Shown in pieces: positions 3 through 54,923 of a stretch of 54,923 nt of DNA. Origin of the DNA: Candidatus Omnitrophota bacterium (lineage in GTDB: Bacteria > Omnitrophota > Gorgyraeia > Gygaellales > Profunditerraquicolaceae); NCBI GenBank assembly GCA_041309145.1, contig JBFZAG010000152.1, forward strand, positions 1 through 54,923. Reading direction: 5' to 3'. A model generated the notes under the pieces. That model was not told the DNA's origin. It did no database searches and saw nothing but the letters and a program-made list of their open reading frames with translations. Position numbers and translations under genes: made by a program. Each line of letters begins with the position of its first letter. The stretch's first letter is position 1.

Positions 3-3000
3 GCGCTTTATTTCTTCAGGGAAGGCATTGTAGTCCAGATCGGAGCTGTTCTGCTTGGCAGGTGGACCGGCGGCTCTTTGGGCGCCTGGATGTATCGGAC
101 ATTGAACGACCAGAAGGATGGGGGCCATGTGAAGAAATACCAGATCGGCCTGGCGGCTTTGTTTATTCTGTCCTTGTTTGGGATCTCGCCGCTGGGGGTT
201 TTATTCCTTATTCCCGCCTATGCGACCGCGTTTATCTTGTGGAAAAGATATTCCTCTCAATTATACGCCCATCACCCGCAGCGCCCCCATCCGCTTATGA
301 CGGGAGTATTATTGGTGGGAATGGTTTTATTCGCGGGCTTTGTTCCCGCGGTAAGCCTGGATATGTTGTTGAGCGGCTTGCTGGTGGCGGTGTTTATCGG
401 CGGAGTGGCAGGTTTTAGCTTGTTCGCCTGCATCGTTTCAGCTAAAGAGCATGATATCCTTGAGGGATTGAACCTCGGTTCCCGGCCGAGTAATTACGTC
501 GCCGTGGGGCGCGCTTTTGAACGCAGTTTCGGCAATTTGAAAGAAGGAAATGTCCCCGAGGCCGTATTGACGGCCAAGATGTTCTTTGAGATGCCCATTG
601 AGACCGAGATGAAACAAATGCTGAGCTTGGGCGACCCTATGGTTGATGATGTGCTCATGGGCACGGAATTCAGGAGATTCAACGCGATGGAGTTGGCGGC
701 TATGGGTTACGGAAATGAGTACCTGAGCCTGATAAACGCGATCGCCAGAAAAACCGGAGAAGGGACTTATCCCTATATGATAACGCGCAATCCCTACCTG
801 GACGGCGGAAATATCGTAGAATATCTCGTCGGCAATCCTTTTGGGCTGTGGGCTGTGCTTACCGCGGCGATGGGATTGCTGAGCTGGCGGGTGGTCAAGT
901 TCAGCGCCATGACCGGACAGCTTGATCAAGCCGTAACTCCGGAGCTTTACCAGGCAATAGGCCGGGTTGTTTTGATGTTCGGAGCTATTTCGATTTTAGC
1001 CGTAAATTTTGCTCCCGCCGGAATTATACAATTTGCGGTAGCGATAGCAATGGCCGGTATTACCGGAATATATCTGGGGCTGTTGATTTACAAATGGTTC
1101 GGCGGCCGTCCTCCTATGCTTGAGCCATATCGGAAAGTGCGCGGCTTCCAGAAGGATGGGGGAAAACCGGTTCAGACAAGGTTGCAAGCCCAGAATTTAA
1201 ATAACGAATTAGCGGAATTGTTATCCGCCGGTCCGGTCAAAGATTTTGTAATTCAGGAGATGGCCAAGAAAAACACGCTGTATCTCAATGACAGATGGGG
1301 AATAAGCATTCTGGACGGGATCGACAAAAACCGGCAGAATATACAAAGACAGGTTGGATTAATGGCATATTTTGAAAGAGGGCTGTTGATGCGTCCTTTT
1401 GTGAACTGGTTCGCCAAACCCGGTTCACGTATGCCGACAGTTTACAGCTTGATCGCCGAATCTTCTGTTCTTGGAGTACATCTGGCAGAAAAACAGGTTG
1501 ATTTCAAGAGAATGGGGATCAGCAAATCTCCGATCCCCGGAGGTTACGGCAGTCCGGCCTTCCGTTTGTCTACGGTGATGGAAGAAGCGGGATTCCCGAT
1601 GCGGGATAATCCGACAGAAGAATTTGTCGCGCCTTTAACCAAAGAGATCGCGGGGCTGATCGTTAAGGATGCCAGCGGAAGATTCCAGGCGCTGCCGGTT
1701 CCGTTTACGGAACAGCATATCCTGATCGACTGGGAAGGCCGGCCGATCGAGATGTGGCTGAGTGAAGGAAGGTATATTCGCCAGGAAATATTTGAATCGC
1801 TGTCGGGTATCGTCAATAAGCCCGGAGCGATCTTTATGGAAAGGCATCCTTTTGACAAACTGATGGAAGATGCCAGGCGCAATAAGTATGCGCCGGTCGC
1901 GCGGTATCATTCTCACCCGCTCAGGAACGAAAGCTTATTGCATCCCGCCTTGCTTCCGCTGCAGAGCATCCCGGATATCGTTATCGATCCGGCCGGCACC
2001 AGAGCAAAAATTTACACCTTTATCCATACTTCAGGCTCATCTCAGCAGCAGTTCCTGGAGAAAGACAGGCAGCTATGGGGTGTTAATATGGTCGAGGAGA
2101 ATCATGACCTTTTTGCCATGCTCAAGAATAAAAACTATCAAAAGGCGCGGCAAGAAATTATCAATCAGTATTTTGCCGTACAAGAAGTCTCTTTGATCAG
2201 CCTTGACGGCGGGATCTTTGAGCCGTTTGCGCCTATCGATAATTTCCGAAGAGCGTTTTACGCAAAGATAGACGAACTGGCCCGCCCCATATTCGGCGAT
2301 CTGGTCGGCACTCCTCTTTGGCAGGATTATGTATTTTTCAGCTGGGCCATTGTCGCGTCGACCCTGTTGTTTGCCATGCGCTATCATTACCGGGACGGAA
2401 TGGTTAAACATCCCGGTTTAAACGATCAAGCCAAACAGCCATATCTCAACCATCGCATCGCAGAGGGGCTATTCAACCATCCTCTGATCAGTTTTTCAAT
2501 ACGCTCCGCGGTTTCTTTGGCAGTAATCACTTTCCTGCCCCTGGAGCATGTCACCTTCATATCCGGGATGGTCTGTTTTATTCTGTCATTATGGTGCGGA
2601 CAGGCGGCGGGGGTCTGGTTATACAAGGCGCAGGGGGGGACAATTTCACCTGTGGTGAGAGAGCAGAAGGATGGAGGGAGAAAGCGCGTTGAACACGGGC
2701 TTTCGGATAAGGCGCTGGAAATGGGCAAGCGAGGGTATCGGTTAGTATATACGCCGCCGGTTCTGGGTAAATTGAAACTCGGCGTCCTGGAATTGCCGCA
2801 AACCAAAAAAGACGGCGACAAGGATGCGGGCGCGCTGGTCGGCGGGAATATGGCTGTTAAGGAAGGCATTCATGTTGAGGCCGCGGATAAGAAAAGAGAC
2901 GGGGGAGAAGTTAAAAAGCCGGCTGAGGAGATTTTTGCGGAAGACGGAAGCCTGGCGGCTATTTTTGCGGATACGAAGAGATCGGTAGAGAGATTCACGC

Positions 3001-6000
3001 CATTTTTAACGGATAATAATATAGCATTCCAGCCGGCGTTGACTTTCGGCAGAAAAGGCCAGAAGGCAGAAGATATCCATTATCAGCGCCCGGCTCCCGG
3101 GCAGCATAGGCCGCGCATAGTGCTTATGTTAGTTCTGGAGGGTAAGATCAAAGCCCGGGCGTATACCGTTTTAGACGAGTTTGTCGCCGAGAGGATTGTT
3201 GAGTCCGGCAATTTGATCATGTTTACCCAGGCTTATTATATTGAGTACCTGGAAGATACCAGGATGCTGGAGATCAAACAGGGGCCTTACCCCGGGGATA
3301 AGAAGAGGGACCGGGTTGTCCTTAGAGAGATCAAAGACGGCGGCAAGGCTGTCGGAGCGACAGTGAACACTAACGGAAAACAGCGCAAGAGTATTATCGA
3401 TATAACCGTGAATTTGGTGAAAAAACAGTTTGACGGTAAATTTATCGGTGCGCACAAAACTTACAATAAGATCATAGATCTCAAGAATCTCGCTTTTGCC
3501 GCTAAACAGGAATCTCTGTTCAACAGCGGGCAGATCAAACAGCCTGATTCCCGCGGGCCGCCCCGATCTTCCGAAGCAAATGAATTATTCCGGAACAATT
3601 ATTTGAAATGGACGGTGATCTTAAGTATTTTCACCGCTTCTTTCTTAACGTCCTCAGCAGTAATCCTGTCGCATTTTACCCTTGCGTCAATTTTGTTCAG
3701 CCCGTTTTGTTTTATCTTGAGCCTGGGCGGCGCCAAATTCTTCTTCTCGACTATTCTGACCTTGCTGGCGGCCAAACCGGTCCTGAATAAGACCCCCTAT
3801 AATGAAAAATTCTGCACGAATGTTCTTCCGAAAACATTTGAAAAATTACCTTCTCTTGCAATTGTCGTTCCTATAAAGGACGTTTCGAACCGCATTGTTC
3901 TGGAGACCCTGAGAAGAGCGGTCCTGGAAAGAGCGGATTATAAACAGGCGGGAGGCAAATGCTGTATTGTGGCGATCGATGACGACCTTTCAGTGGAAGA
4001 GGCGAATAGGTTGGGTTCGAGTACCCAAAAAGAACTGGAAAGGATCAATTTCTACCGCGCAAACAATATCGCTATCGTGGTTAGCCCCAGAGACATCGAT
4101 AGAAAAGGCAAGTTCGGCAAGCCTATCGCCATGAATTACATGCGGGAAGCATTGAAGAGCAATAACCTGCGTGGAGGCTATGTCGAAGGCGGGGCGAAAT
4201 TGGAAGAAGACGCTATCGTACTTCTTCTGGACAAGGATACCTATATTGCTCCGGGAGTCAGCAAGTTCATAATGAAAGAGTTTCAGGATGCCCAAAGATT
4301 GGCGTATATCCAGTGCCGCTGCGAACCTTATAACTTAAGTGAAAATTATTACACAAAAATTGTCGGATATATGACTACCCAGTATTATGATCTGGCTTTT
4401 CCGGCAACCAGCTATTTAGGGTCGCTTGTTCCTTTGGTCGGCCACGCGGTGTACCTGAGAGCTAAATTCTTTGACTGGAGCGAGAACAGGGTCAGCGAGG
4501 ATCTGGACCTTGCCATGCGCCTGGTCACCAAAGGGTTTTACGGGAAATATATGGATCTGCCTCCCGAGATGTCCTTCACGGAATATGTGGCCAATAATTT
4601 TGAAGAAGAAGCGATGCATACCCACAGGTATGTGTACGGAGCTCTGCAATTCGTTTTTAATCCGATCACTCAGTGGCACAAAAAAGGAATTATGAGCTCG
4701 CAGGTGAAGGAGTTCCTCAATTCGCCTCATATGCCCTGGTATATTAAGGTCGACCTTCTTATCTATATAGTAAATCTTTTCTCCCACCCCAGTATCTGGA
4801 TATTTTTATTCCTGGTTTTTCCTTTCCTGCCCCCGCATCCTTTATCCGCTGCCGGGCCGATCATCTTTTACTTTGTCATGGGAACCTGGGCGTCGGTCAT
4901 GGTCAACAGGGCCAGAGATGTAAGCCGGACCGAGAGGGGAATCATGGGAGAAATATTTTTTCATCTGAAATACGCTCTTCCTTACGGGTTCTCGGTTTCT
5001 TCCCACTCCTGGTACGGTTTTAAGGGTTTCCTGGATTTCGCCTTAGACAGAAAACCTAAATTCCGCAGCTCCGCAGCGGGCGAAAATTTGCCTGACTATT
5101 CTCTCCGGGAAGCGATCGCCCAGTCAAGATATTTAGCCAGAAGCCTCACGGAAAGCGGGCTTTTCCTGGCGCTGGTAGTTATTTCCGGGTTCCGCATTTT
5201 GGGGGCGGATATTCAGTTTATCGCCCTGACAATTTGGGCATTGGGAAATTATTTTGTCTGGCAGAACCTGATGAATCCGATCCTGGTAAAAAGCCTGGGC
5301 CGGGCCTCCAGACACGGATTAAAACAAATTAAATCCGGACTTCATTTAACCCGCTTGGAAGATTCTAAAGACCAAAAAGTTTTTGATATGCGCACTGCCG
5401 CCCAGGATAAAGCTGATCGGGACGGCGGGCAATACCTTGCTCAGGCTGTCGAACCGAAACCTGGTTTCGGAGCGCTGGTCAGGACCTTAGGCTCGGTTTC
5501 TTTTGTCATGCTCAAGGGAGGGCTCTGGGGCGGGATCGAACCTTTTACCCGCTACAAGATCCAACAGCGGCTGATGCGCGCTTACGCCATATTCGAAGGG
5601 CCGATAAACTATGAGACCATTGATGAGGTCATTAGGCGTTGGGGGCACACCTCATTTACCTATGCGCTTAGGGATCTGGAAGATTCCGGCGATTTTGACA
5701 GAGAAGATATTGAATGGGGAAAGTTCCTGGTGAGCCAGAAAGATGGCCGGGAATTCGCGGCCTGGTTTAAAGAGCTCAAAGCCCGCTATCCGCAAAATCC
5801 TTTCTTGAAAGAATTTGACCTTTGGCTGCAATACAGTTTAAAAGGGTCCCAGAATCTGATGCTTATCCGCAAGGTCTCGCGCCAGGAAGTATTAAAAGAA
5901 TTCAAACTGGATGCCGAAAAAGCAACAGTATTACTAAAAGGGAGAAATCCTTTTGTCGTGGATGAGCAGGATTTTCTCAAGGCCGCGGTGGTCGGCGCAA

Positions 6001-51000: not shown

Positions 51001-54000
51001 CGGTCTTGCTTTCCGGAGACCTCTTCATTTCTTTCGCGAAATGGGAACCAGGAGGTATCGCAGTCAAAGAAGCGCTTGCCGCAGGGAATGTCTGCCTGGT
51101 ATCTGATGTCGGCGGACATAAGTCTTCAGTTATTTCTGGATTCAACGGCAGCCGTTTTTCCGTCCTTGAATCCGAGCACAGGACTGTCCGGGAAATGATC
51201 GTGCCGGAGTTCGACAAGCTGTTTTCATTATGGCAGGAAAGAAAAACCGACAACAGCTGGAATACCATGGTCAAAAACGCCTTGTTCTCTGACAACCGCT
51301 GGGACAGGTCGATGGTCGACATCGAAAACCTCTTTAATTACGCGGTTACCAGTGGCGAAAACACGAAGCAGCCGGACGGAGGAAAAGTAAAAAATGACGT
51401 GTCGAAATGGCTGTTAGTGTTTGATTTTGACGGGACCATGACTGATCTTGACAAAAAGAGCGAATATTTTGAGAAAGTTCCTCCGGCTTTAGAGAATGCC
51501 TTGATCAGAGCGAGGAATAAGGGAGCCAGGATTGCGATATTATCGGGAAGAGCCCCCAACTTTGTTTATGATCAATTAAACCAGAAGACACAGTTATTGA
51601 GCGAGCTCAAATACTCCGGACAAGTAGCGTTTTTGGGAGAGCTGGGCGGCCATATCGCTTATTGCACTGACCGCTGCGAGTTCGTCAAAGACTCGGATTA
51701 TTCGCTGGAGCTTTCCGAAGAGTTAAAAGCTAAGATCTTAGAGAAGATAAAAAACAAATTGACCGAGCTCGGGCTTATCGACCATCTGGTAATGCAGGGA
51801 ACTGTCGGGAAAATCATCCTCAATGACCGCAAGCAGTCGTCGCGCACGCTGAAGTTCGAAGGAAAAGAGTTTGAAGCTTATGCCCCGGAGATCTTTGATT
51901 ATCTCAAAAGGGAACTGAAAGCCGACAGTGTCTATGTGTTCAACAACAATAATGTCGCCATCGACATTGGTTTGACCGCCAAAGGGCTGGCTTTAAAGGA
52001 ATTTGCCGGGAGAGCCAATATCGCGATAGAAAACATATTTATAGCCGGAGACAGCGGCAATGACCTGGATATGCTTTATCTGGTGTTCGAAGGAGCGATT
52101 GGCGCATTTGTCAAAAATTTTGAGGCGATCCCCGAAGATCTTAAACCTAAACTGATTTTAGTCAAAAATCCCGAAGAATTAGGTTGGCTTCTCGAGAAGA
52201 AGTTCGATCTCAAAGACGGCGGAAACCAGATACCATTTCCTTTCCCCAACCTGTTTGATAACCAGCGCGGCTGGAACGATCCGGAATGGCTGGAGGCTTA
52301 TTTAGTGGCGGGCGCGCTGCTCAAGGTCGCGGATGACGTTAACGCCGGCATTCCAGCGGAGCAGATCGCGGAAGCAGCAATCGGGGAGTTCGCGGATCAC
52401 GGTCTTGCCGCAGACCGGGAAAAGATCGTTCAGCGACTGGAAGGCTTGCGTCGCAGAGGACTGATCCGGAACAGCGATAATAATATGGCGATCCGTCCGG
52501 AGAGCACGGTTTATCTGAATGTCGAACCGCGGGTGGTGGCGGTCTGGGCGGATGACTTTAATTATATCCAGTCGGATATCGAGCGGGCGATCGTCGCCGG
52601 AAGGAACGAGCTTTTAAACACCATAGACGCTTACAGCGGGATAGTCGCGCAATGGCCGGAATACCCGGTTGAGGCCAAATATCCGGTTTTGCGCGCGATC
52701 GTCCAGATGAGCCGGCCGGGGCAGAAAATTCTGGTTGATTGGCTGTCCAGCCGCGGTTTTTCGAACCGTACTTCCCTAGTGGATGCGATCCTGCTCATGC
52801 TGGATTTTGAAAATGCCAGAAAAGACTGGCTGTCATACCGCGCGCCCCAGCTTTTGGGCCGGAACATTTATCTTGTGGCCGCGGAGATCTCTTTGCTGGC
52901 CGGCGGACTGGGCCGGGTGATGCAGTATCACGGGACCGCGATGCACCAGCTTTGCGCGGGCAAAGCCAAAGTCATCTATGTCGAACCGGATTATCCTTTT
53001 ACCCGCGATCAAACAGGTAAAGTCATTGATCTGCATTTTGATAAACTGGCTATACCTGTGCGCGGGATCAGGAAGCTTGATCAGCGTTTTAGCACCTTCG
53101 TAGCCGGCAAACCCGTAGAGTTCGAAGTGTCTACCGGGATAAACAGCCTGGGGGTTCCGGTATATATGATCAAAGATGTCCCGGGCTATTATGTGAATAT
53201 TCTTTACGAATACAGCACTCCGGAATCACCGGCTTCTAATTTCGAGTTCACCGAATTTTTCACCAAGGCAACGCTGGAGTTGATCCGCTATCTGGAAGTC
53301 CGGGAAAAGCGCGAGCAGGGCTCCGCGTATAAAGCGCCGCTGGTTGACGCTAACGACGGCCAGGCCCTGCCGCTGGTGGCCTGGCGCCGTATTTTTTACG
53401 GAGAAAAAGAAAAAATTGTGCGGGGGGATTCTTCAGAAGAAGATATTACTGACGCCTATGAGATATTGCGCGACGCGGTATTTTGCGGCACAACCCATAC
53501 TTACCGCAACCGGGTCATGATCGGCGGAGATATCAAAGCTTTCGGTTTGCCATTCTTGAAAGCCGCCGGAGTTTCCGATGAATGGCTGTGGATATTTTTG
53601 CGCAAAGAGCTTGAAGGCTCGCTGCTGTGGGATTTTACCAGCGCCGGGCTGCGCTGCGCTGACGTGGCCAAGGGGGTAAGCGCCATCCACGCTTACGAGA
53701 TGAATGCCCGCGATCCTTCGGTCAGGCTTTTCGGCTTGACGAACGGAGATAACCGTTTATATTCCTCAGAATATTTCCGCCAGGCGCTCGCTCAGGCCGG
53801 CTGCGTTGATTATGAAGACGCTTCCGGCGAGCAGGTCGCCGCGGCCAAGCGGATCTCCAAGGAAGCGTTGGGGCTTAATCCGAGCCAGATGGTCATTTCT
53901 TATTCCGGCAGGCTGGTCCCGGAAAAAGCCGGACAGGAGCGGGCTTTCTTTGAATCCAATATCGAGGCCATGGTCAAGGCCGGCATCCAGGTTATTATTT

Positions 54001-54923
54001 ACGGCAATGCCCAGCCCTATGAAGCCAGCCAGCGCATCGCTATCAGGCTGGAACAATTAGCCCAAAGACTGGAGCGCAGCAATTATCCGGGCAGATTCGT
54101 TTTGAAAACAAAATTCCATATCGAAGAGCAGCGCGCTTTGCTGGCCGCCAGCGATATCCAGATCCAGGATTCCGACCGCTACACCGGAGCTTCCGAATAC
54201 ACCGAGGCGGATGTTTCCGCCAATGCCGGGCTGCAGATGGGCGCGCCATTCTGGGAGGGGATCATCCAGCACCAGGGAGCGGTGATCAACCGCCGGCTCC
54301 AGAAAGGAAACACCCTGATCCCGGCAACTTCCGCTCCTCAGTCTTACCTGGATATCATTTTCTGGGCCAACGATGAATTCAAAGCCAACCGTTTAAGCAA
54401 GTATCAGGCCCAATCGATCAGATTCAGCCGGATCCTGGAAGCTTCTCTTACCGCCGGAGAATATTTGCGGCTCTGGAACGCCGCTTTCCATAATAAAAGG
54501 CCTAATTTCACCCGCCCAAGAATTTCCGGAGAGGTCTACAATACCGAGCCAATAGCCCTAACCGCGTATCTGGAAGAAGGAGAGCGGGCTATTGAGAAGG
54601 AGGGCAATACATTCTTTATTAAGGGAAAGGTTGAGGAATTGCGGGAAAATCTGGAATTATCAGTAGCCATAAATCTGGAAACTTTTGATGATGTCTATTC
54701 CGGCATCGGCCGCCGCGGGGTCGTGCCTTTCGAGATGATCAGCGTCAAGCTGGTAAATGAGTATGGGCTGGTTTTGCCTCTTAGCGTCAAGCGGGCCACC
54801 CACAGCAAAGCGGAATATTACCTTATTATCCCCAAAGACCTGGCGCTGCCCTTTGAAGGAAATCTGGAGATAACTTCCGGAGTCTGGAAAGTCGCTTTGC
54901 CAATGAAAATAATCGCCCAAGAG
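3..54923 (+). CDS. Single giant multi-enzyme ORF, partial at both ends (>18,307 codons); mosaic of enzyme-like, membrane and DNA-binding modules separated by a recurrent K/R/Q-D-G-G delimiter
   Basis: Manual translation of + frame 3 runs from nt 3 (ALYFFREGIV...) to nt 54923 (...LPMKIIAQE) without TAA, TAG or TGA. The ORF track lists no + strand ORF in this frame, as expected if the frame never closes inside the window. All recognisable enzyme signatures listed below lie in this one frame. Confidence 0.9.
126..1163 (+). other. Module bounded by DGG sites: polytopic membrane segment, no enzyme motif recognised
   Basis: Long hydrophobic runs: IGLAALFILSLFGISPLGVLFLIPAYATAFILW (144-242), LMTGVLLVGMVLFAGFVPAVSLDMLLSGLLVAVFIGGVAGFSLFACIV (about 294-440), FGLWAVLTAAMGLLSW (840-887) and VVLMFGAISILAVNFAPAGIIQFAVAIAMAGITGIYLGLLIY (966-1091). 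Confidence 0.5.
1600..2060 (+). other. Tentative JAMM/MPN+-like metalloisopeptidase motif set
   Basis: KEIAGLIV (Glu codon 1644-1646, resembling the E-x2-G-x-L element), a beta-strand-like APVARY followed by HSHP (1908-1919), then SIPD (1965-1976). Canonical spacing is H-x-H-x7-S-x2-D. Here 16 residues separate the second His from the Ser, so the call is weak. Confidence 0.3.
2829..2906 (+). repeat. Copy A of conserved 26-aa peptide GALVGGNMAVKEGIHVEAADKKRDGG
   Basis: Codon-by-codon translation. It shares the identical 23-nt string gcgctggtcggcgggaatatgg with copies B and C. It ends in DGG and is preceded by a degenerate KKDGD (D-G-D codons 2811-2819). Confidence 0.85.
2907..3344 (+). other. 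Cupin-fold module, copy 1 (146 aa, bounded by DGG on both sides)
   Basis: EDIHYQRPAPGQHRPRIVLMLVLEGKIKARAY...GNLIMFTQAYYIEYLEDTRMLEIKQGPYPG. It is a clear paralog of 13500-13922 (shared IHY[QH]xPAPGQ..PR, LEGKIK, ILEIKQGP[YF]PG). Confidence 0.5.
3609..5290 (+). other. Membrane-embedded family 2 glycosyltransferase (GT2, processive-synthase-like architecture); catalytic part about 3846-4660
   Basis: TM runs lie before (3609-3775) and after (about 4749-4905 and 5157-5290) a GT-A domain. Motifs: LPSLAIVVPIKD, CIVAIDDDLS, LLLDKDTYIAPG (DxD), RVSEDLDLAMRL (ED) and HRYVYGALQ (in the position of the QxxRW motif). Confidence 0.7.
7020..7700 (+). other. HIT-superfamily (GalT branch) NDP-hexose phosphorylase/nucleotidyltransferase-like domain (GDP-hexose phosphorylase-like)
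   Basis: FCDLCNN (7041-7061), NQFPIFNNHVLLLP, and FFNSYGAGATQGHFHGQ with the H-x-H-x-Q signature at 7317-7331. This resembles the NSxGAxATxNHxHFQ motif of GDP-L-galactose/GDP-D-glucose phosphorylases. Confidence 0.5.
8067..8600 (+). other. DUF218/YdcF-like domain
   Basis: ADILILLGNENLEVLEKAAEV...SEAEVMAKILIAKGVPEEKIKLEARSRNTNENVQYT...DTVIVMQTPLQQRRA. The E-x-R/S-S-R-NT-x-EN signature is typical of DUF218. Confidence 0.5.
8667..9395 (+). other. deoC: Deoxyribose-phosphate aldolase (DeoC) domain
   Basis: LASRIDHTNLKADATEQEITRTCQEAKDHGFALVAIRP..., VKVIFENCYLSDEQK, GADFVKTSTGF (Schiff-base Lys codon 9201-9203), GATAQDVSLM, VKAAAGIRN and GASRIGTSAG. Confidence 0.8.
9426..10020 (+). other. P-loop nucleoside-monophosphate kinase, archaeal-type cytidylate kinase-like
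   Basis: It starts directly after NIDGG with HVLAINGEHGAGKSTLAKELAKITGLPIFSGGAIMRGYAEKRGMSVKAYTEKF (Walker A plus an SGGxxxR-like NMP-binding element). Confidence 0.55.
10230..11090 (+). other. Possible phosphodiester glycosidase (NAGPA/DUF2233)-like domain
   Basis: Weak resemblance only: ISAPTIIKDSKIL..., ALDQGNQLVFYAFSGKSSREGLTLGQIQEYLKAQGIKDAMILCNGSDVSM (compare the GxTLxELAxxLxxLGxxxAxNLDGGGS pattern). Confidence 0.25.
11240..12450 (+). other. Radical SAM domain 1 with Cys-rich C-terminal extension
   Basis: CNFVCWGC (CX3CX2C, 11277-11300), AIIFTGGGEPTMHP and GLRVGLFTNGSLL. C-terminal cysteines occur in KCLACSW and RCPPICACH (about 12213-12430), suggesting a possible auxiliary Fe-S (SPASM/twitch-like) region. 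Confidence 0.75.
12700..13450 (+). other. Zn-ribbon plus class I SAM-dependent methyltransferase
   Basis: CAICGN...VKCAADG is followed by GKVLEIGFASGYVLEEL (motif I, about 13005-13050), FDAVLLYDLLEHVPDP and ILKPGGIVIIRMPN. Confidence 0.7.
13500..13922 (+). other. Cupin-fold module, copy 2 (141 aa, bounded by DGG on both sides)
   Basis: AIHYHTPAPGQSAPRQEILIVLEGKIKGLIYD...GEAIQFTQAHNIEFMEDATILEIKQGPFPG. It is a paralog of 2907-3344. Confidence 0.5.
14040..15050 (+). other. Radical SAM domain 2
   Basis: FPCNNDCRHCT (CX3CX2C, 14100-14123), VIAGNSTEPLLYP and LRLYSNFYYG. Additional C-terminal cysteines occur in FPACHYW, TPCTATAEG and LCPECTRGE. Confidence 0.7.
15280..15880 (+). other. 2H phosphoesterase (LigT/cyclic phosphodiesterase)-like domain, copy 1
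   Basis: Two H-x-[TS]-x motifs: STYHITVF (HITV, 15423-15434) and PFVHMSLARI (HMSL, 15702-15713). Confidence 0.5.
16180..17300 (+). other. PHP (polymerase and histidinol phosphatase) family metallophosphoesterase domain
   Basis: FVDFHVHTFFSDG (HxH, 16191-16199), LKAIGVVDHNT, VIPGIEM, AVLAHP and ILGSDSHYNN. Confidence 0.7.
17436..20020 (+). other. GH94-type glycoside phosphorylase (cellobiose/chitobiose phosphorylase-like) module
   Basis: TRDSAQDIYG (about 18585-18610), DDHLWIILAVVVYIKETGD, LPWMLRADWCDAFN (18945-18968, in the position of the DWND motif), [53 protein letters not shown]. Confidence 0.75.
20037..20135 (+). pseudogene. Internally deleted remnant of a ROK-kinase module (only N-terminal EKI... 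and C-terminal ...FILxxxKAVSxELAxR retained), still in frame
   Basis: EKIDTAFEKGFFILIAGKAVSKELADRKGSNDV aligns with the start (EKINIVF, 28542) and the tail (FAKGLKDESGKDLFILTVRKAVSTELASRG, about 29409-29500) of the intact ROK module. Shared nucleotide strings include ggaaagcggtttcaa. Confidence 0.55.
20136..20213 (+). repeat. Copy B of conserved 26-aa peptide GALVGGNMVIREGIHVEVADKKKDGG
   Basis: Codon-by-codon translation. It shares the identical 23-nt core gcgctggtcggcgggaatatgg with copies A and C. Confidence 0.85.
20260..20900 (+). other. 2H phosphoesterase-like domain, copy 2 (second motif degenerate)
   Basis: NHMHCTIGAIRG (HCTI, 20436-20447) and NRAHVAIGYF (HVAI, 20718-20729, with Ala replacing Ser/Thr). 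Confidence 0.35.
21609..22575 (+). other. ROK/ASKHA sugar kinase-like domain, copy 1
   Basis: GVFLGFDFGGTGIKMAFL, TIRNDGDCGAAQAVF, VTYLGLGSGVAFGQIDEAG...GEAHF and VVVGGGL. Confidence 0.65.
22630..23400 (+). other. HAD-IIB (Cof/sugar-phosphate phosphatase-like) domain, copy 1
   Basis: YLFDVDATVT (DxD, 22644-22652), VVLCSGRPF, FDIVAKDADKYMAIEYL and AAVGDSGTTEGNDF. Confidence 0.65.
23650..24200 (+). other. Pol-beta-superfamily nucleotidyltransferase domain (GlnD/DUF294-like)
   Basis: GLFVYGSNSKGWAVNGSDFDFALV (G-S ... D-x-D signature), followed by a helical region. Confidence 0.45.
24640..24860 (+). repeat. HEAT/leucine-rich-variant-like helical repeats
   Basis: VRHALAQNPRATPKILSSLA / VRLMVARNSRTPMKTITRLL / EVVRKEAAKSL show a periodic pattern. 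Confidence 0.35.
25056..26560 (+). other. GH3 glycoside hydrolase (NagZ/beta-hexosaminidase or beta-glucosidase-like), N- and C-terminal domains
   Basis: LPLLFTINQEGGRLNEF, AWNFAPDADL, RSFGSDP, ATAKHFPTYG (about 25386-25408), ESIMLGHV and GTIVTDGLSMGAL (about 25611-25650). The C-terminal domain has ADIIIVQTYN, VVVVSTGAPYD, GRLPVAIPG. Confidence 0.8.
27280..28420 (+). other. Weak RelA/SpoT-like (alarmone synthetase-type nucleotidyltransferase) resemblance
   Basis: LYAPFAATLGLTALAFRL and VYIPLAYRLGFDSLASKLRNSCF (compare the YAPLAxRLG element), NDYIGLRI and YFELQIYEESTFVFSKAEYG (compare the EVQIRTxxMHxxAExG element). Motif spacing is imperfect. Confidence 0.2.
28542..29500 (+). other. ROK family sugar kinase module, copy 2 (starts directly after KDGG)
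   Basis: EKINIVFSMGGTKLAIAAVD, GIAFAGPVD, QITNDCISALLGE, MVFIIGTGVNGAAAKNGKVHLG...ELGHN. Confidence 0.75.
29604..29681 (+). repeat. Copy C of conserved 26-aa peptide GALVGGNMVVKEGVHVEVAEKKKDGG, inside a 29-aa unit (29595-29681) flanked by DGG on both sides
   Basis: Codon-by-codon translation: SQDGG|KKFGALVGGNMVVKEGVHVEVAEKKKDGG|DIAK. It has the same 23-nt core as copies A and B. Confidence 0.85.
29780..30990 (+). other. Tandem SIS (sugar isomerase/sugar-phosphate binding) domains
   Basis: SIS 1: NIYFIAAGRSGQAG...GDLVIVISGSGSTPSV...ADIVAITAKP. SIS 2: KVYISGDGISHKIALMF...DDVAIIIGAYTRED...GAKTIIIAG. Confidence 0.7.
31090..31450 (+). other. Small HExxH (zincin-like) putative metallopeptidase segment
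   Basis: GELTLFVNPNICRAPPEQRKVILRHELFHLLDPEKSE, with HELFH at 31281-31295. No further metzincin or gluzincin element was recognised by eye. Confidence 0.3.
31560..31800 (+). other. Transmembrane cluster in DGG-bounded module 31467-32147
   Basis: ILNAIITLVNILILSAEIYVSAFIISFLAGTVFGPSFAFFDFFVSGIAALAIASFVVLAGSV. Confidence 0.5.
33355..33840 (+). other. Transmembrane cluster at the start of DGG-bounded module 33249-35402 (remainder unassigned)
   Basis: ILCPIGITAILLVTLGKSIGYVPAFLVALAYVGSVFARAAV, LEGLFIFTLINGLILWTCL, FTIWAIQLPANVILGAFY and IGSAFFMQIFYNYLFTFL. Confidence 0.45.
35403..36890 (+). other. Module of repeated winged-helix / HTH DNA-binding-like domains
   Basis: VKMGIYKVLEALPGKKLTRLEIEKATGLKTGVVKKELRRLRKAGIVAQDKKGRDFQYGLS; ISRAEVARMLRDENKINRN; KSYSKTAQAFKEKGKIIDRNTISRII; AKVYLAFLLKAEGKNAREIAAAQEAPIKRVTNNYFLILAKAGLIEHKKPGFYKVTLEG; LKLLRVLALLAEKVAIANIAQKLGMEQSALKKEYLRFLDREAGLIMLS. 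Confidence 0.5.
36909..37500 (+). other. coaE: Dephospho-CoA kinase (CoaE)-like module (204 aa between DGG sites)
   Basis: It starts directly after QDGG with IKIIGLAGIVGSGKTEVAARL...EIIEMDKVGDQA (compare the CoaE N-terminal pattern xxIGLTGGIGSGKS...DADxxA). VVIEAAVL and EVWLVEA follow. Confidence 0.7.
37521..39080 (+). other. gpmI: 2,3-bisphosphoglycerate-independent phosphoglycerate mutase (iPGM) module, with its own Met directly after KDGG
   Basis: MIRPVALIILDGWGYKEDGSDNAI..., LPDAEMGNSEVGHLNIGAGR (catalytic Ser codon 37701-37703), FMGLISNAVVHSD, ALTDGRDSP, RYYAMDRDNRWDR, FNFRADRAREI, ETEKFAHVTFFFNGG, NYANPDMVGHTG, MADHGNAE and APTVLEIMGL. Confidence 0.9.
40300..40900 (+). other. Possible isoprenoid-synthase-fold segment (weak)
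   Basis: FMQMADDLKDF (DDxxD, 40824-40838), with an upstream degenerate Asp-rich element MVKIGDNLLD. There is no other support. Confidence 0.2.
41235..41820 (+). other. Transmembrane cluster at the start of DGG-bounded module 41196-43412
   Basis: WIPFFIFVGPLSLMGIPCLLLLGSIAPVYLAFVYLAFIPASLVISNVIVARF, VMFAASIIYADATFVWLGVLLLAPQFALPAFIVYHAMSVFFFVRMLLGV and ILSIGGLLSGILFIPAEIAVDLLI. Confidence 0.5.
42225..42790 (+). other. HAD-IA hydrolase (phosphatase) domain, followed by another TM pair at about 42966-43118
   Basis: IKVIIFDLDKTLY (DxD, 42246-42254), LAVLTNNYK, GQEKPHPEAF, VVMVGDELEQDIKAAQRMGINAILV. The following TM pair reads ATAMLLGNIFGMMLVGGIFWALDLPLSMGVLTGAILGYGLARFAPFINLYL. Confidence 0.75.
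46030..47480 (+). other. GH13 alpha-amylase-family catalytic domain
   Basis: All four GH13 conserved regions are in order: GILVDIIPHVN (His codon 46272-46274), GVRIDVAHNF (nucleophile Asp codon 46509-46511), LFIGENYG (Glu codon 46719-46721), LETHDY (His-Asp codons 46905-46910). Confidence 0.75.
47880..49540 (+). other. glgA: GT5 glycogen/starch synthase-like domain, copy 1
   Basis: IGVVVSVSSEAAPVSKAGGMANVVGE (compare the GlgA pattern SEaaPfaKtGGLaDV), IVIGNDWMCAPL, WVHNNG, ITNGVD, VSRITEQKG and WEPGGISPMEALAFGVPCFVSDKQGLKSTV. Confidence 0.8.
49620..51350 (+). other. GT5 glycogen/starch synthase-like domain, copy 2 (tandem paralog of copy 1)
   Basis: IVIVSPAAQPISSVGGMDRVVKDIA, IIVGNDWMCGPM, WVHNAG, IENGI, VCRITGQKN and WEPGGIAVKEALAAGNVCLVSDVGGHKSSV. 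It is collinear with copy 1 over its whole length. Confidence 0.75.
51405..52190 (+). other. HAD-IIB sugar-phosphate phosphatase-like module, copy 2
   Basis: WLLVFDFDGTMTD (DxD, 51423-51431), RIAILSGRAPNF, IDIGLTAKGLAL and FIAGDSGNDLDML. Confidence 0.7.
52863..54490 (+). other. GT35 alpha-glucan phosphorylase-like GT-B domain (divergent)
   Basis: The order of elements matches bacterial/archaeal alpha-glucan phosphorylases: AAEISLLAGGLGRV, VDANDGQALPL, CGTTHTYRNRV, AKGVSAIHAYEM, FGLTNGDNRLY, VISYSGRLVPEKA, VIIYGNAQPYE, ASDIQIQDS..TGASEYTEADVSANAGLQMG. The usual EASGTSGMK (PLP-Lys) string is not evident. Confidence 0.45.

What the first reader, a model, noticed from the sequence alone, without database searches (positions are those of the whole stretch)
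3..54923. The entire 54.9-kb window is one stop-free reading frame (>18,307 codons, open at both ends)
Frame 3 of the + strand contains no TAA, TAG or TGA from nt 3 to nt 54923. The other five frames break into the short ORFs in the track, the longest being 259 aa. Three of 64 codons are stops, so a non-coding frame should close every few dozen codons. I found no intergenic spacer, start context, promoter-like AT-rich gap or terminator hairpin region anywhere in the window, and the gene must extend beyond both edges. ORFs of this size are extremely rare in prokaryotes. Giant ORFs have been reported in a few uncultivated lineages such as Omnitrophota, but I cannot assign this one. The ORF track does not show this frame, so an ORF caller that requires both a start and a stop would miss it.
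Basis: seen in the sequence. Interest (0 to 1): 0.9.

Follow-up and report, generated by a model that had tools for sequence, protein, structure and literature searches.

The report
Giant multi-enzyme gene fragment, Omnitrophota
The whole window is a real, conserved piece of one of the giant genes already known from Omnitrophota bacteria; it strings about 40 complete, gene-sized enzymes and membrane segments into one reading frame, joined by a short recurring Asp-Gly-Gly motif that may mark the long-sought cutting points.

Summary
Frame 3 of the + strand has 0 stops in 18,307 codons; the other five frames have 465-1,091 each (chance about 1e-367). It is not an artefact: six independently assembled relatives, five of them named Candidatus Omnitrophota MAGs, are stop-free over their whole fetched length. 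They share 39-73% amino-acid identity with the window, and dN/dS is about 0.1.

This kind of gene is already published: the Omnitrophota giant ORFs, in particular the Archaeovorin or multi-enzyme metabolic class. The window is a new member of that kind.

The product is not a repeat adhesin. It is a chain of about 40 gene-sized units. Many are complete enzymes with native termini, including cellobiose phosphorylase, iPGM, CoaE, DeoC, a NagZ-like GH3, ROK kinases, SIS, glycogen synthases, radical SAM, methyltransferase and HAD. There are also about 24 transmembrane-like helices.

The units are joined by a (K/R)DGG motif:
- DGG occurs 39 times against 5 expected.
- No DGG lies inside a Pfam domain.
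- Units are gained or lost between genomes at these sites.
- Other lineages use other junction peptides, such as SSS[SP]-hydrophobic.
- A DGG conserved inside standalone iPGMs is erased in this copy.

I did not find this motif in the papers I read. It gives candidate cleavage points for the proposed, untested, polyprotein-like processing. No protease was found in the window.

The parts
3..54923 (+). One continuous reading frame, 18,307 codons, open at both window edges; an internal fragment of a giant gene
   Evidence: 0 stops; relatives equally open; dN/dS about 0.1
3..116 (+). Unit 1 (aa 1-38), cut by the window edge; followed by the KDGG junction at nt 114-125
   Evidence: the L006 homology block starts at aa 38
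126..800 (+). Unit 2 (aa 42-266), 3 TM-like helices; ends at a DGG that is RDGG in L006
810..1154 (+). Unit 3 (aa 270-384), 2 TM-like helices
1164..2204 (+). Unit 4 (aa 388-734), no family match
2214..2669 (+). Unit 5 (aa 738-889), 2 TM-like helices
2679..2897 (+). Unit 6 (aa 893-965); ends with mini-element GALVGGNMAVKEGIHVEAADKKRDGG (copy 1 of 3)
2907..3335 (+). Unit 7 (aa 969-1111): WbuC/RmlC-like cupin, copy 1, with DGG on both sides
3345..5420 (+). Unit 8 (aa 1115-1806): membrane-embedded family-2 glycosyltransferase, 4 TM-like helices
5430..9416 (+). Unit 9 (aa 1810-3138): composite of weak DUF4922/HIT-like, DUF218/YdcF and a full-length deoxyribose-phosphate aldolase (aa 2886-3130)
   Evidence: deoC equivalog 148 bits, cutoff 117
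9426..11120 (+). Unit 10 (aa 3142-3706): (d)CMP-kinase-like P-loop starting right after DGG, plus a weak NAGPA match
11130..13490 (+). Unit 11 (aa 3710-4496): radical SAM/SPASM plus SAM-dependent methyltransferase
13500..13913 (+). Unit 12 (aa 4500-4637): cupin, copy 2, with DGG on both sides
13923..15062 (+). Unit 13 (aa 4641-5020): second radical SAM; the paralog alignment to unit 11 starts at the DGG in both copies
15072..15884 (+). Unit 14 (aa 5024-5294), no family match
15894..17426 (+). Unit 15 (aa 5298-5808): PHP phosphoesterase domain
17436..20027 (+). Unit 16 (aa 5812-6675): full-length GH94 cellobiose/chitobiose phosphorylase; KDGG ends at aa 5811 and RDGG starts at aa 6675
   Evidence: PDB chain residues 8-811 of 811 align to aa 5823-6674
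20037..20204 (+). Unit 17 (aa 6679-6734): 56 aa, carrying mini-element copy 2
20214..21152 (+). Unit 18 (aa 6738-7050), no family match
21162..28532 (+). Unit 19 (aa 7054-9510): composite of ROK, HAD-IIB, nucleotidyltransferase/GlnD-like, GH3 NagZ-like beta-N-acetylhexosaminidase (aa 8351-8851) and a weak HD match; 2 TM-like helices
28542..29585 (+). Unit 20 (aa 9514-9861): ROK sugar kinase (GlcNAc-kinase-like), starting 4 aa after KDGG
29595..29672 (+). Unit 21 (aa 9865-9890): 26-aa mini-element lying between two DGG motifs (copy 3)
29682..31457 (+). Unit 22 (aa 9894-10485): two SIS domains (6-phospho-3-hexuloisomerase-like)
31467..32138 (+). Unit 23 (aa 10489-10712), 2 TM-like helices
32148..33104 (+). 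Unit 24 (aa 10716-11034), no family match
33114..33239 (+). Unit 25 (aa 11038-11079), 42 aa
33249..35393 (+). Unit 26 (aa 11083-11797), 3 TM-like helices
35403..36899 (+). Unit 27 (aa 11801-12299): several weak winged-helix matches
36909..37511 (+). Unit 28 (aa 12303-12503): dephospho-CoA kinase; its P-loop starts right after QDGG
37521..39107 (+). Unit 29 (aa 12507-13035): full-length cofactor-independent phosphoglycerate mutase. The native Met is the first residue after KDGG and the catalytic motifs are intact. The DGG conserved in standalone enzymes is replaced by NAV at nt 37875-37883
   Evidence: equivalog 650 bits, cutoff 331
39117..39911 (+). Unit 30 (aa 13039-13303), no family match
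39921..41186 (+). Unit 31 (aa 13307-13728), no family match
41196..43403 (+). Unit 32 (aa 13732-14467): 5 TM-like helices plus a HAD phosphatase (aa 14076-14257)
43413..43691 (+). Unit 33 (aa 14471-14563), 93 aa
43701..44831 (+). Unit 34 (aa 14567-14943), no family match
44841..44951 (+). Unit 35 (aa 14947-14983), 37 aa; the homology blocks to L001, L004 and L006 begin here
44961..47519 (+). Unit 36 (aa 14987-15839): GH13 alpha-amylase-family domain
47529..49598 (+). Unit 37 (aa 15843-16532): glycogen/starch synthase (GT5 + GT1), copy 1
49608..51374 (+). Unit 38 (aa 16536-17124): glycogen/starch-synthase-like, copy 2; absent in L006 and replaced by a paralog in L001 and L004
51384..52214 (+). 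Unit 39 (aa 17128-17404): HAD-IIB / sucrose-6-phosphate-phosphatase-like hydrolase
52224..54923 (+). Unit 40 (aa 17408-18307): GT5-like unit cut by the window edge. Its homologs exist as standalone 800-1,500-aa proteins with Sec signal peptides. It is probably about 40 aa short of its end

Best explanation
IDENTITY. The window is an internal fragment of at least 18,307 codons of a genuine giant gene from an uncultivated Omnitrophota bacterium. It belongs to the published 'Archaeovorin' / 'multi-enzyme metabolic cluster' class.

ARCHITECTURE (shown). The frame is an in-frame concatenation of about 40 gene-sized units.
- Many units are complete enzymes with native N- and C-termini and intact catalytic motifs.
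- Together they cover glycan breakdown (GH94 phosphorylase, GH3 NagZ-like, GH13), sugar phosphorylation and isomerisation (two ROK kinases, SIS), glycogen-type synthesis (two or three GT5 units, a GT2), sugar-phosphate and nucleotide housekeeping (iPGM, DeoC, CoaE, CMP-kinase-like, HAD phosphatases), and radical-SAM and methyltransferase chemistry.
- About 24 hydrophobic helices, in about 10 clusters, are interspersed among them.
- About half of the units have no known family.
- Units are joined almost without linker by a protein-level motif, [polar]-[K/R]-D-G-G.
- Between related genomes, whole units are present, absent or swapped exactly at these junctions.

MECHANISM (inferred). The gene is read as one translational unit. 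It delivers a fixed-stoichiometry, membrane-associated set of carbohydrate-processing enzymes, doing the job an operon does in other bacteria. I think the junction motif is most likely a recognition site for endoproteolytic release of the units, meaning polyprotein-like maturation. I put that step at roughly 40-45%. The alternative is that the chain stays intact and DGG is only a hinge.

CONFIDENCE. The confidence value refers to the identity and the unit-junction architecture, not to cleavage.
For: REAL AND CONSERVED
- 0 stops in 18,307 codons.
- Six relatives are equally open, at 39-73% aa identity.
- dN/dS is 0.08-0.16 with dS at least 1.8.

TAXON
- All five genome-collection loci are Candidatus Omnitrophota MAGs.
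- Related partial proteins are labelled Omnitrophota by NCBI.

CLASS
- The Pfam content (PF08323, PF00534, PF04055, PF00480, PF08241, PF13419) matches modules 1 and 2 of the published catalogue.
- TM-like helices are present, as the literature describes.

UNITS ARE WHOLE PROTEINS
- iPGM aligns end to end with 510-aa standalone GpmI at 52-55% identity. The native Met directly follows KDGG, and the match exceeds the NCBIfam equivalog cutoff.
- GH94 aligns to PDB chain residues 8-811 of 811, exactly between KDGG and RDGG.
- DeoC is full length.
- CoaE, ROK and the CMP-kinase-like unit start 0-7 aa after a DGG.
- The cupin unit aligns end to end with hundreds of 130-145-aa standalone proteins.
- The last unit matches standalone 800-1,500-aa proteins from the KDGG onward.

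JUNCTION MOTIF
- DGG is the top over-represented tripeptide: 39 found, 5.1 expected, P 1e-21. KDGG occurs 21 times against 0.37 expected.
- DGG is also top-ranked in L004 and L006.
- 0 of 39 sites lie inside a Pfam domain (P about 1e-6).
- 7 of 8 independent homology-block boundaries lie within 20 aa of a DGG; none of 100,000 permutations did as well.
- DGG is conserved at orthologous junctions while the flanking residues diverge.

POINTERS TO SPECIFIC RECOGNITION
- Other lineages use other junction peptides: SSS[SP]-hydrophobic in P0165 (26 found, 2.9 expected, P 1e-16) and in P0149 and P0158, and GDTFRTSSEPSL in P0303.
- The DGG conserved inside 105 of 119 standalone iPGMs is fully replaced (NAV) in the embedded copy.
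- 'Empty' tandem DGG junctions occur in L006.
- Peptidase domains occur in such giants: M50 in L004, and C39 and S8 according to West-Roberts et al..
Against: - No peptidase domain was found anywhere in the 18,307 aa.
- The motif lacks the upstream hydrophobic pattern of classical C39 double-glycine substrates.
- Three relatives (L002, L003, L005) have almost no DGG, so the motif is not universal.
- Not every enzyme boundary carries a DGG. Units 9 and 19 contain several enzymes each.
- The iPGM 'avoidance' is a single case. It is shared with P0002 and P0303, whose lineage uses another junction peptide, so it could be inherited rather than selected in this genome.
- TM helices were called with a simple hydropathy window only.
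- The taxon rests on homology, because the window holds no marker gene.
- The gene's start, stop and total length are unknown.
- There are no expression or proteomic data for this gene.
Confidence: 0.85

Rival explanations
1. Uncleaved tethered mega-enzyme. The chain stays in one piece as a membrane-anchored 'metabolon', and (K/R)DGG is only a preferred flexible hinge between folded units.
For: Gly-Gly is intrinsically flexible. The AlphaFold model gives low confidence for the junction flanks. No protease is present in the window. The literature reads many such giants as membrane-anchored multi-domain proteins.
Against: Passive linkers are normally variable in sequence and length. Here a 3-4-residue motif is kept at 39 junctions and at orthologous junctions of diverged genomes. 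Other lineages keep a different but equally strict peptide. Junctions are nearly linker-free: the native Met directly follows GG. From my own knowledge, GH94 phosphorylases work as homodimers, and that would be awkward for units embedded in one chain. An internal DGG has been removed from iPGM.
Confidence: 0.35
2. Evolutionary scar. The DGG-coding sequence is the footprint or substrate of the DNA-level process, such as microhomology recombination, that inserts and deletes units. It has no role in the protein.
For: Units are gained and lost exactly at junctions. L006 carries tandem 14-aa 'empty' junctions. The core is often GAC GGC GG.
Against: The GAC and GGC preference is a general Asp-Gly / Gly-Gly codon-pair effect, not specific to the motif (Fisher p 0.56 and 0.10). 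The Lys codon and the last Gly codon vary freely. The amino-acid motif persists across relatives whose synonymous sites are saturated. That indicates selection on the peptide rather than on the DNA.
Confidence: 0.12
3. Assembly, polishing or chimeric artefact that has fused separate genes into one frame.
For: None beyond the general caution that very long ORFs in metagenome assemblies deserve a check. No reads are available here.
Against: Six independent assemblies from different studies keep the same frame open over 13.8-22.7 kb, with collinear homologous units. All units lie in one frame with 0 stops, while the other frames have normal stop density. dN/dS is about 0.1.
Confidence: 0.02
4. 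An ordinary operon read under a non-standard genetic code, or a giant NRPS/PKS, or a repeat adhesin.
For: Those are the usual explanations for very long bacterial ORFs.
Against: All three stop codons are absent from this frame and normally frequent in the other five, so no reassignment is needed or indicated. Independent genes would not share a single frame. No condensation, adenylation, ketosynthase, RTX or Ig-like repeat domain was found. Internal protein repeats are minimal, and DNA tandem repeats are essentially absent.
Confidence: 0.01

Closest known systems
Omnitrophota giant genes, 'Archaeovorin' type (West-Roberts et al. 2023, bioRxiv 10.1101/2023.11.21.568195; type protein: the 39,678-aa protein of Ca. 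Velamenicoccus archaeovorus)
   Same: A single ORF of tens of kilobases in Omnitrophota, with numerous TM regions, large unannotated stretches, and glycosyltransferase, methyltransferase, glycoside-hydrolase and SAM-enzyme content. Post-translational cleavage was proposed for these genes, with the cleavage points unknown.
   Different: The window shows no SecA DEAD-like, C39, S8 or NUDIX domain, but the gene's ends lie outside the window. The (K/R)DGG junction motif, and the fact that units are whole enzymes with native termini, are not described in that paper.
'Multi-enzyme metabolic cluster' class of Omnitrophota (Gorgyraeia) long proteins, Pfam modules 1 and 2 (Nielsen and Lui 2026, bioRxiv 10.64898/2026.06.07.730766)
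   Same: Many distinct Pfam families tile the chain and none dominates. Starch synthase PF08323, GT1 PF00534, radical SAM PF04055, ROK PF00480, methyltransferase PF08241 and HAD PF13419 are all present. The protein is membrane-associated and its sequence is divergent.
   Different: Phosphoglucomutase and response-regulator domains were not seen in the window. That paper contains none of the words motif, linker, cleavage or polyprotein.
Viral polyproteins (for example of picorna-, nido- and alphaviruses), cut at short consensus sites, several of them after Gly-Gly (my own knowledge; not tested here)
   Same: One ORF encodes many complete functional proteins separated by a short, lineage-specific consensus peptide that ends in small residues.
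   Different: This is a cellular gene some 10-50 times longer. No protease was identified in the window and no cleavage has been shown. The units are metabolic enzymes rather than replication or structural proteins.
Double-glycine leader peptides processed by C39 peptidase domains (bacteriocin/ABC exporters)
   Same: There is a Gly-Gly pair at the putative scissile position, and C39 domains are reported in Omnitrophota giants.
   Different: The conserved hydrophobic positions upstream of GG (my own knowledge of the leader consensus) are absent. Position -4 relative to the cut is K/R and position -3 is an invariant Asp.

Membership tests
Omnitrophota giant ORFs (Seymour 2023; West-Roberts 2023) | Uninterrupted ORF longer than 20 kb | tested here: met
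   54.9 kb with 0 stops, open at both ends
Omnitrophota giant ORFs (Seymour 2023; West-Roberts 2023) | Encoded in an Omnitrophota genome | tested here: met
   All five genome-collection relatives are Candidatus Omnitrophota MAGs at 39-64% aa identity. Related partial proteins are named Omnitrophota. This rests on homology only, because the window holds no marker gene.
Omnitrophota giant ORFs (Seymour 2023; West-Roberts 2023) | Numerous transmembrane regions | tested here: met
   24 non-overlapping segments with a 19-residue Kyte-Doolittle mean above 1.6, in about 10 clusters. This is a simple hydropathy method, not DeepTMHMM.
Archaeovorin type (West-Roberts 2023) | Divergent SecA DEAD-like helicase domain (present in most full-length members) | tested here: inconclusive
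   Not found in the 18,307 aa, but the gene extends beyond both edges.
Archaeovorin type (West-Roberts 2023) | C39 (or S8) peptidase domain near the N-terminus | not testable with these tools
   The N-terminus of the gene lies outside the window and the source contig was not recovered. No peptidase was found inside the window.
Archaeovorin type (West-Roberts 2023) | Glycosyltransferases, methyltransferases, glycoside hydrolases, SAM enzymes, peptidases and NUDIX | tested here: inconclusive
   GT2, GT4 and GT5, a methyltransferase, GH94, GH3 and GH13, and radical SAM are present. No peptidase or NUDIX was found in the window.
Multi-enzyme metabolic cluster class (Nielsen and Lui 2026) | At least 10,000 aa, with many distinct Pfam families and none dominating by copy number | tested here: met
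   About 30 distinct families, each in at most 2-3 copies
Multi-enzyme metabolic cluster class (Nielsen and Lui 2026) | Module-2 sugar-metabolism Pfams (PF08323, PF00534, PF04055, PF00480; also PGM/PMM and PF00072) | tested here: met
   PF08323, PF00534, PF04055 and PF00480 are present. PGM/PMM and response-regulator domains were not seen in the window.
Polyprotein (viral sense) | One ORF encoding several complete, independently functional proteins | tested here: met
   Full-length alignments of iPGM, GH94, DeoC, CoaE, the cupin and the last unit to standalone proteins
Polyprotein (viral sense) | Short conserved peptide at the junctions | tested here: met
   (K/R)DGG at 39 junctions, never inside a domain, and conserved in orthologs
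Polyprotein (viral sense) | A protease that recognises the junction | tested here: inconclusive
   None in the window. Peptidase_M50 lies in frame in the relative L004, and C39 and S8 are reported in the literature. No link to DGG has been shown.
Polyprotein (viral sense) | Demonstrated cleavage into mature products | not testable with these tools
   Needs proteomics or biochemistry.
C39 double-glycine leader substrates | GG at -2/-1 together with conserved hydrophobic residues upstream (-4, -7, -12) | tested here: not met
   GG is present, but -3 is an invariant Asp, -4 is 62% K/R, and positions -15 to -5 have background composition. The leader consensus comes from my own knowledge.
NRPS/PKS megasynthases; repeat adhesins | Condensation, adenylation, carrier or ketosynthase domains; or tandem Ig/RTX/cadherin-type repeats | tested here: not met
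   No such Pfam families; minimal internal repeats

The most novel reading that the evidence does not exclude
These giant Omnitrophota genes are true cellular polyproteins. The chain is translated once and then cut at lineage-specific junction peptides ((K/R)DGG in this lineage, SSS[SP]-hydrophobic or others elsewhere) into some 40 separate enzymes and membrane proteins. A single giant ORF would then replace operons as the unit of co-expression, and units would be shuffled in frame at the junctions. The 39 DGG sites in this window would be the first concrete map of the cleavage points that earlier papers said was missing.
Probability: 0.4. Interest if true: 0.85.

Novelty: new member of a known kind. 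Interest (0 to 1): 0.6.

Why it matters
Giant genes of Omnitrophota are the longest protein-coding genes known, and what becomes of their products is an open question. [quoted passage not shown] A survey of huge proteins listed unknown protease motifs and an origin by gene fusion as the main unknowns (PMC11573180).

This window adds one more such gene, which is expected. It also shows unusually clearly that the chain is built from whole, native-length enzymes joined by a strict short motif, and that the units are exchanged between genomes at that motif. That turns 'are they cleaved, and where?' into a concrete prediction that can be checked against existing proteomes or with a two-unit construct. 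It also gives a rule for cutting giant proteins into units for structure prediction and annotation.

Tried and rejected
1. Nucleotide-level signal at the junctions (Shine-Dalgarno-like, recombination core or RNA site). GGAGG is not used, and the GAC and GGC preference equals the general Asp-Gly / Gly-Gly codon-pair bias. Rejected.

2. Classical C39 double-glycine leader. The upstream hydrophobic pattern is absent. Membership rejected, but cleavage after GG by some other protease is not excluded.

3. The duplicated 140-aa unit as a hidden protease. It is an RmlC/WbuC-like cupin. Rejected.

4. A protease anywhere in the window. Pfam at E up to 0.1 on every unannotated unit, NCBIfam and PDB-sequence searches found none.

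5. Repeat adhesin, NRPS or an alternative genetic code. Rejected.

6. Embedded RNAs, tRNAs or real antisense genes. None found.

7. Recovering the source contig or the gene ends. The best genome hit was only 64% identical and the metagenome scan gave a 57-73% relative. The source contig was not found.

8. A 5,000-aa query in the word-indexed protein search returned only one local hit, P0001, a HEAT-repeat giant without DGG. This was uninformative.

9. Fused-operon origin. The standalone homologs of the last unit sit among unrelated genes (L007, L009), so there is no evidence for a pre-existing operon with the same gene order.

10. V. archaeovorus papers held in the library gave no data on the size of the mature product.


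Full report
OBSERVATION

Frame 3 of the + strand (nt 3-54923) contains no TAA, TAG or TGA in 18,307 codons. The other five frames carry 465-1,091 stops each, and their longest open stretch is 291 codons. The ORF tool cannot list the giant frame because it has neither a start nor a stop inside the window. At the stop density of the other frames, the chance of such an open frame is about 1e-367. Base composition by codon position is coding-like. There is no AT-rich gap, no Rfam family, no tRNA and only one trivial tandem repeat. Weak promoter-like and terminator-like matches occur at about the shuffled expectation.

IS THE FRAME REAL?

A scan of one genome per species found five related loci, all from Candidatus Omnitrophota MAGs, at 39-64% amino-acid identity. 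A metagenome scan found a sixth relative at 57-73%. Every one of these loci is stop-free in the homologous frame over its whole fetched length (13.8-22.7 kb) and open at both ends, even though their GC content runs from 34.5% to 57%. Homologous blocks are collinear. They have dN/dS of 0.08-0.16 with saturated synonymous divergence. The relatives remain open for at least 3,333 aa beyond both window-equivalent ends, where they encode further sugar enzymes. An assembly or polishing artefact, a chimeric join or a recoded operon is therefore very unlikely. The source contig itself was not recovered, so the gene's true start, stop and length remain unknown.

WHAT THE FRAME ENCODES

It does not encode a repetitive adhesin or a megasynthase. 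Pfam, NCBIfam and PDB-sequence searches show a succession of unrelated enzymes:
- a membrane-embedded GT2
- DUF218/YdcF
- a full-length deoxyribose-phosphate aldolase (above the equivalog cutoff)
- a CMP-kinase-like P-loop
- two radical SAM units, one with SPASM
- a SAM methyltransferase
- a PHP phosphoesterase
- a full-length GH94 cellobiose/chitobiose phosphorylase
- two ROK sugar kinases
- HAD phosphatases
- a GH3 NagZ-like hexosaminidase
- two SIS domains
- dephospho-CoA kinase
- a full-length cofactor-independent phosphoglycerate mutase (650 bits against a cutoff of 331)
- a GH13 domain
- two glycogen/starch synthases
- a further GT5-like unit

A simple hydropathy scan gives 24 TM-like helices in about ten clusters. 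Internal repetition is minimal: the two synthases, a 140-aa unit present twice, and a roughly 25-aa mini-element present three times. About half of the chain matches no family, even at relaxed thresholds.

THE JUNCTION MOTIF

The tetrapeptide KDGG occurs 21 times against 0.37 expected, and DGG occurs 39 times against 5.1 expected. In an unbiased ranking of all tripeptides, DGG is by far the most over-represented in the window (P 1e-21; the next independent one is about 1e-5). It is also the top tripeptide in relatives L004 and L006. The consensus is [polar]-[K/R]-D-G-G-x, with background composition further upstream.

None of the 39 sites falls inside a Pfam domain (P about 1e-6). The sites cut the chain into 40 units with a gene-like size distribution, and where a unit is a known enzyme the motif sits at its native termini:
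- The initiator Met of iPGM is the residue directly after KDGG, and the native C-terminus lies 14 residues before the next KDGG.
- GH94 aligns to PDB chain residues 8-811 of 811, exactly between KDGG and RDGG.
- CoaE, the second ROK kinase and the CMP-kinase-like unit begin 0-7 residues after a DGG.
- The duplicated 140-aa unit is flanked by DGG on both sides in both copies. It is an RmlC/WbuC-like cupin, and most of its 773 homologs are standalone 130-145-aa proteins aligned end to end.
- The last unit has standalone homologs of 800-1,500 aa. They start with a Sec signal peptide and a spacer, and their homology to the window starts exactly at the KDGG.

UNITS ARE THE EVOLUTIONARY MODULES

Homology blocks between the window and its relatives begin and end at DGG sites. 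Seven of eight independent boundaries lie within 20 aa of a site, while only 8.8% of the chain does, and none of 100,000 permutations did as well. L006 has the same unit order but lacks thousands of residues of intervening units. Where a 870-aa block is missing, it carries three DGG motifs in tandem 14-aa repeats. At orthologous junctions DGG is conserved in the window, L001, L004 and L006 while the flanking residues diverge.

IS THE SIGNAL IN THE DNA OR IN THE PROTEIN?

The motif is mostly coded AAA GAC GGC GGN and avoids GGAGG, so it is not Shine-Dalgarno-like. The GAC and GGC preference is the same in non-motif Asp-Gly and Gly-Gly dipeptides (Fisher p 0.56 and 0.10), and the first and last codons vary freely. 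I therefore reject a nucleotide-level signal or a simple recombination scar. The peptide itself is under selection.

THE MOTIF IS LINEAGE-SPECIFIC

Three relatives (L002, L003, L005) have almost no DGG. Embedded copies of the cupin unit in other Omnitrophota multi-unit proteins are flanked either by DGG (P0150) or by SSS[SP] followed by a hydrophobic residue (P0149, P0158, P0159, P0160, P0165). In the 6,428-aa P0165, SSS is the top tripeptide (26 found against 2.9 expected, P 1e-16) and recurs at gene-sized spacing. P0303 repeats a third peptide, GDTFRT[ST]SEPS[LP], four times. Strict but lineage-specific junction peptides are what one would expect of recognition sites that co-evolve with a reader. 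They are not what one would expect of passive linkers.

A HINT OF SITE AVOIDANCE

105 of 119 standalone iPGMs carry a conserved internal DGG (GLLSDGGVHSH). The window's copy has NAV there and keeps the neighbouring His. The few standalone exceptions change only one residue. This is a single case. The same replacement is present in P0002 and P0303, which use another junction peptide, so it may be inherited rather than selected in this genome.

HOW IT MOST LIKELY WORKS

Shown: a real, conserved giant frame made of whole enzymes and membrane segments joined by a selected short peptide, with units exchanged between genomes at the junctions.

Inferred: the gene acts as one translational unit that supplies a fixed set of membrane-associated enzymes for glycan breakdown, sugar activation and glycogen-type synthesis. 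This agrees with the roles proposed in the literature.

Inferred with moderate support (about 40%): the junction peptide is an endoprotease recognition site and the chain matures like a polyprotein. West-Roberts et al. proposed cleavage by C39 or S8 domains but had no cleavage points. A Peptidase_M50 domain lies in frame in relative L004.

Against cleavage: there is no peptidase in the window, the motif does not match the classical double-glycine leader pattern, and there are no experimental data.

The main rival is an uncleaved tethered mega-enzyme with DGG as a hinge (about 35%).

COMPARISON WITH WHAT IS KNOWN, AND NOVELTY

[quoted passage not shown] The Archaeovorin type was described in 10.1101/2023.11.21.568195. 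The 'multi-enzyme metabolic cluster' class, with the same Pfam modules, was described in 10.64898/2026.06.07.730766. The window is a new member of that known kind.

The junction motif was not found in the papers I could search:
- The 2026 preprint contains none of the words motif, linker, cleavage or polyprotein.
- Searches for KDGG plus Omnitrophota, and for polyprotein plus Omnitroph*, returned nothing relevant.

This absence holds only for the library searched.

LIMITS
- TM calls are crude.
- The Pfam coordinates used are those of the best-scoring stretch only.
- Calling all 39 DGG sites 'junctions' is partly circular where the neighbouring units are unannotated.
- Several comparison proteins are fragments of longer ORFs.
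- The taxonomic assignment rests on homology.

Noticed in passing
window 37875-37883 (aa 12625-12627): The DGG of the iPGM motif GLLSDGGVHSH, conserved in 105 of 119 standalone enzymes, is replaced by NAV in the embedded copy. The same replacement occurs in the fused relatives P0002 and P0303. It could be avoidance of the junction motif inside a unit.
   Followed up: partly
window 2829-2906, 20136-20213, 29604-29681 (aa 943-968, 6712-6737, 9868-9893): A roughly 25-aa mini-element, GALVGGNMxVKEG[IV]HVE[AV]A[DE]KK[KR]DGG, occurs three times. One copy is a 26-aa 'unit' lying between two DGG motifs. L006 has a counterpart, GAMVGTILKEGEMGRETADN..RDGG, twice. Its function is unknown.
   Followed up: partly
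L006 about nt 18233-18331 (aa 6078-6110): Three DGG motifs sit in tandem 14-aa repeats (DGG[SN]ADARRVASSR) exactly where the window carries a 870-aa starch-synthase plus HAD block. These are 'empty' junctions.
   Followed up: partly
L004 about nt 18362-18805: A Peptidase_M50 (site-2-protease family) domain, 42 bits against a cutoff of 27, lies in frame inside the relative's giant ORF, about 1,900 aa downstream of the window-equivalent end.
   Followed up: no
P0165 (6,428 aa), P0149, P0158, P0159, P0160 (Omnitrophota partial proteins): A second junction peptide, SSS[SP] plus a hydrophobic residue, recurs at gene-sized spacing. In P0159 it directly precedes a starch-synthase N-terminus. L002 and L005 likewise over-use SSP/GSP-type motifs.
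   Followed up: partly
P0303 (3,592 aa): A third repeated junction-like peptide, GDTFRT[ST]SEPS[LP], occurs four times, each just before or after TM-like segments.
   Followed up: no
P0122, P0123, P0128, P0130, P0143; window 52224-54923: Standalone homologs of the last, GT5-like unit carry classic Sec signal peptides. In the window this unit shares a TM-free stretch with glycogen synthases and a HAD phosphatase, which would be expected in the cytoplasm. The topology is unresolved.
   Followed up: no
L010 148-4437 (P0124): A complete 1,429-aa gene with its own start and stop: a signal peptide, then three units separated by RDGG and MDGG. It is a small natural model for testing junction cleavage.
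   Followed up: partly
P0188: A 916-aa partial protein with FDGG junctions and the same cupin unit is labelled as archaeal (Candidatus Culexmicrobium profundum / archaeon GB-1867-035). This could be mis-binning, or a wider distribution of the architecture.
   Followed up: no
L011 3968-13978 (downstream of P0002): The end of a related multi-unit ORF is followed by a PilZ gene, a sugar ABC importer (a solute-binding protein and two permeases) and glycoside hydrolases. This echoes the carbohydrate-import neighbourhoods reported for giant genes.
   Followed up: no
window, whole frame: There is a strong codon-pair bias. Asp is coded GAC in about 80% of Asp-Gly dipeptides but in 36% of cases elsewhere. 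The first Gly of Gly-Gly is GGC in about 52% of cases, against 36% overall.
   Followed up: yes
window 22047-22796, 37334-37948, 46536-47315 (- strand): The three longest antisense ORFs (204-259 aa) have no Pfam match. They are probably by-products of the low stop density of the frame opposite a coding frame.
   Followed up: yes
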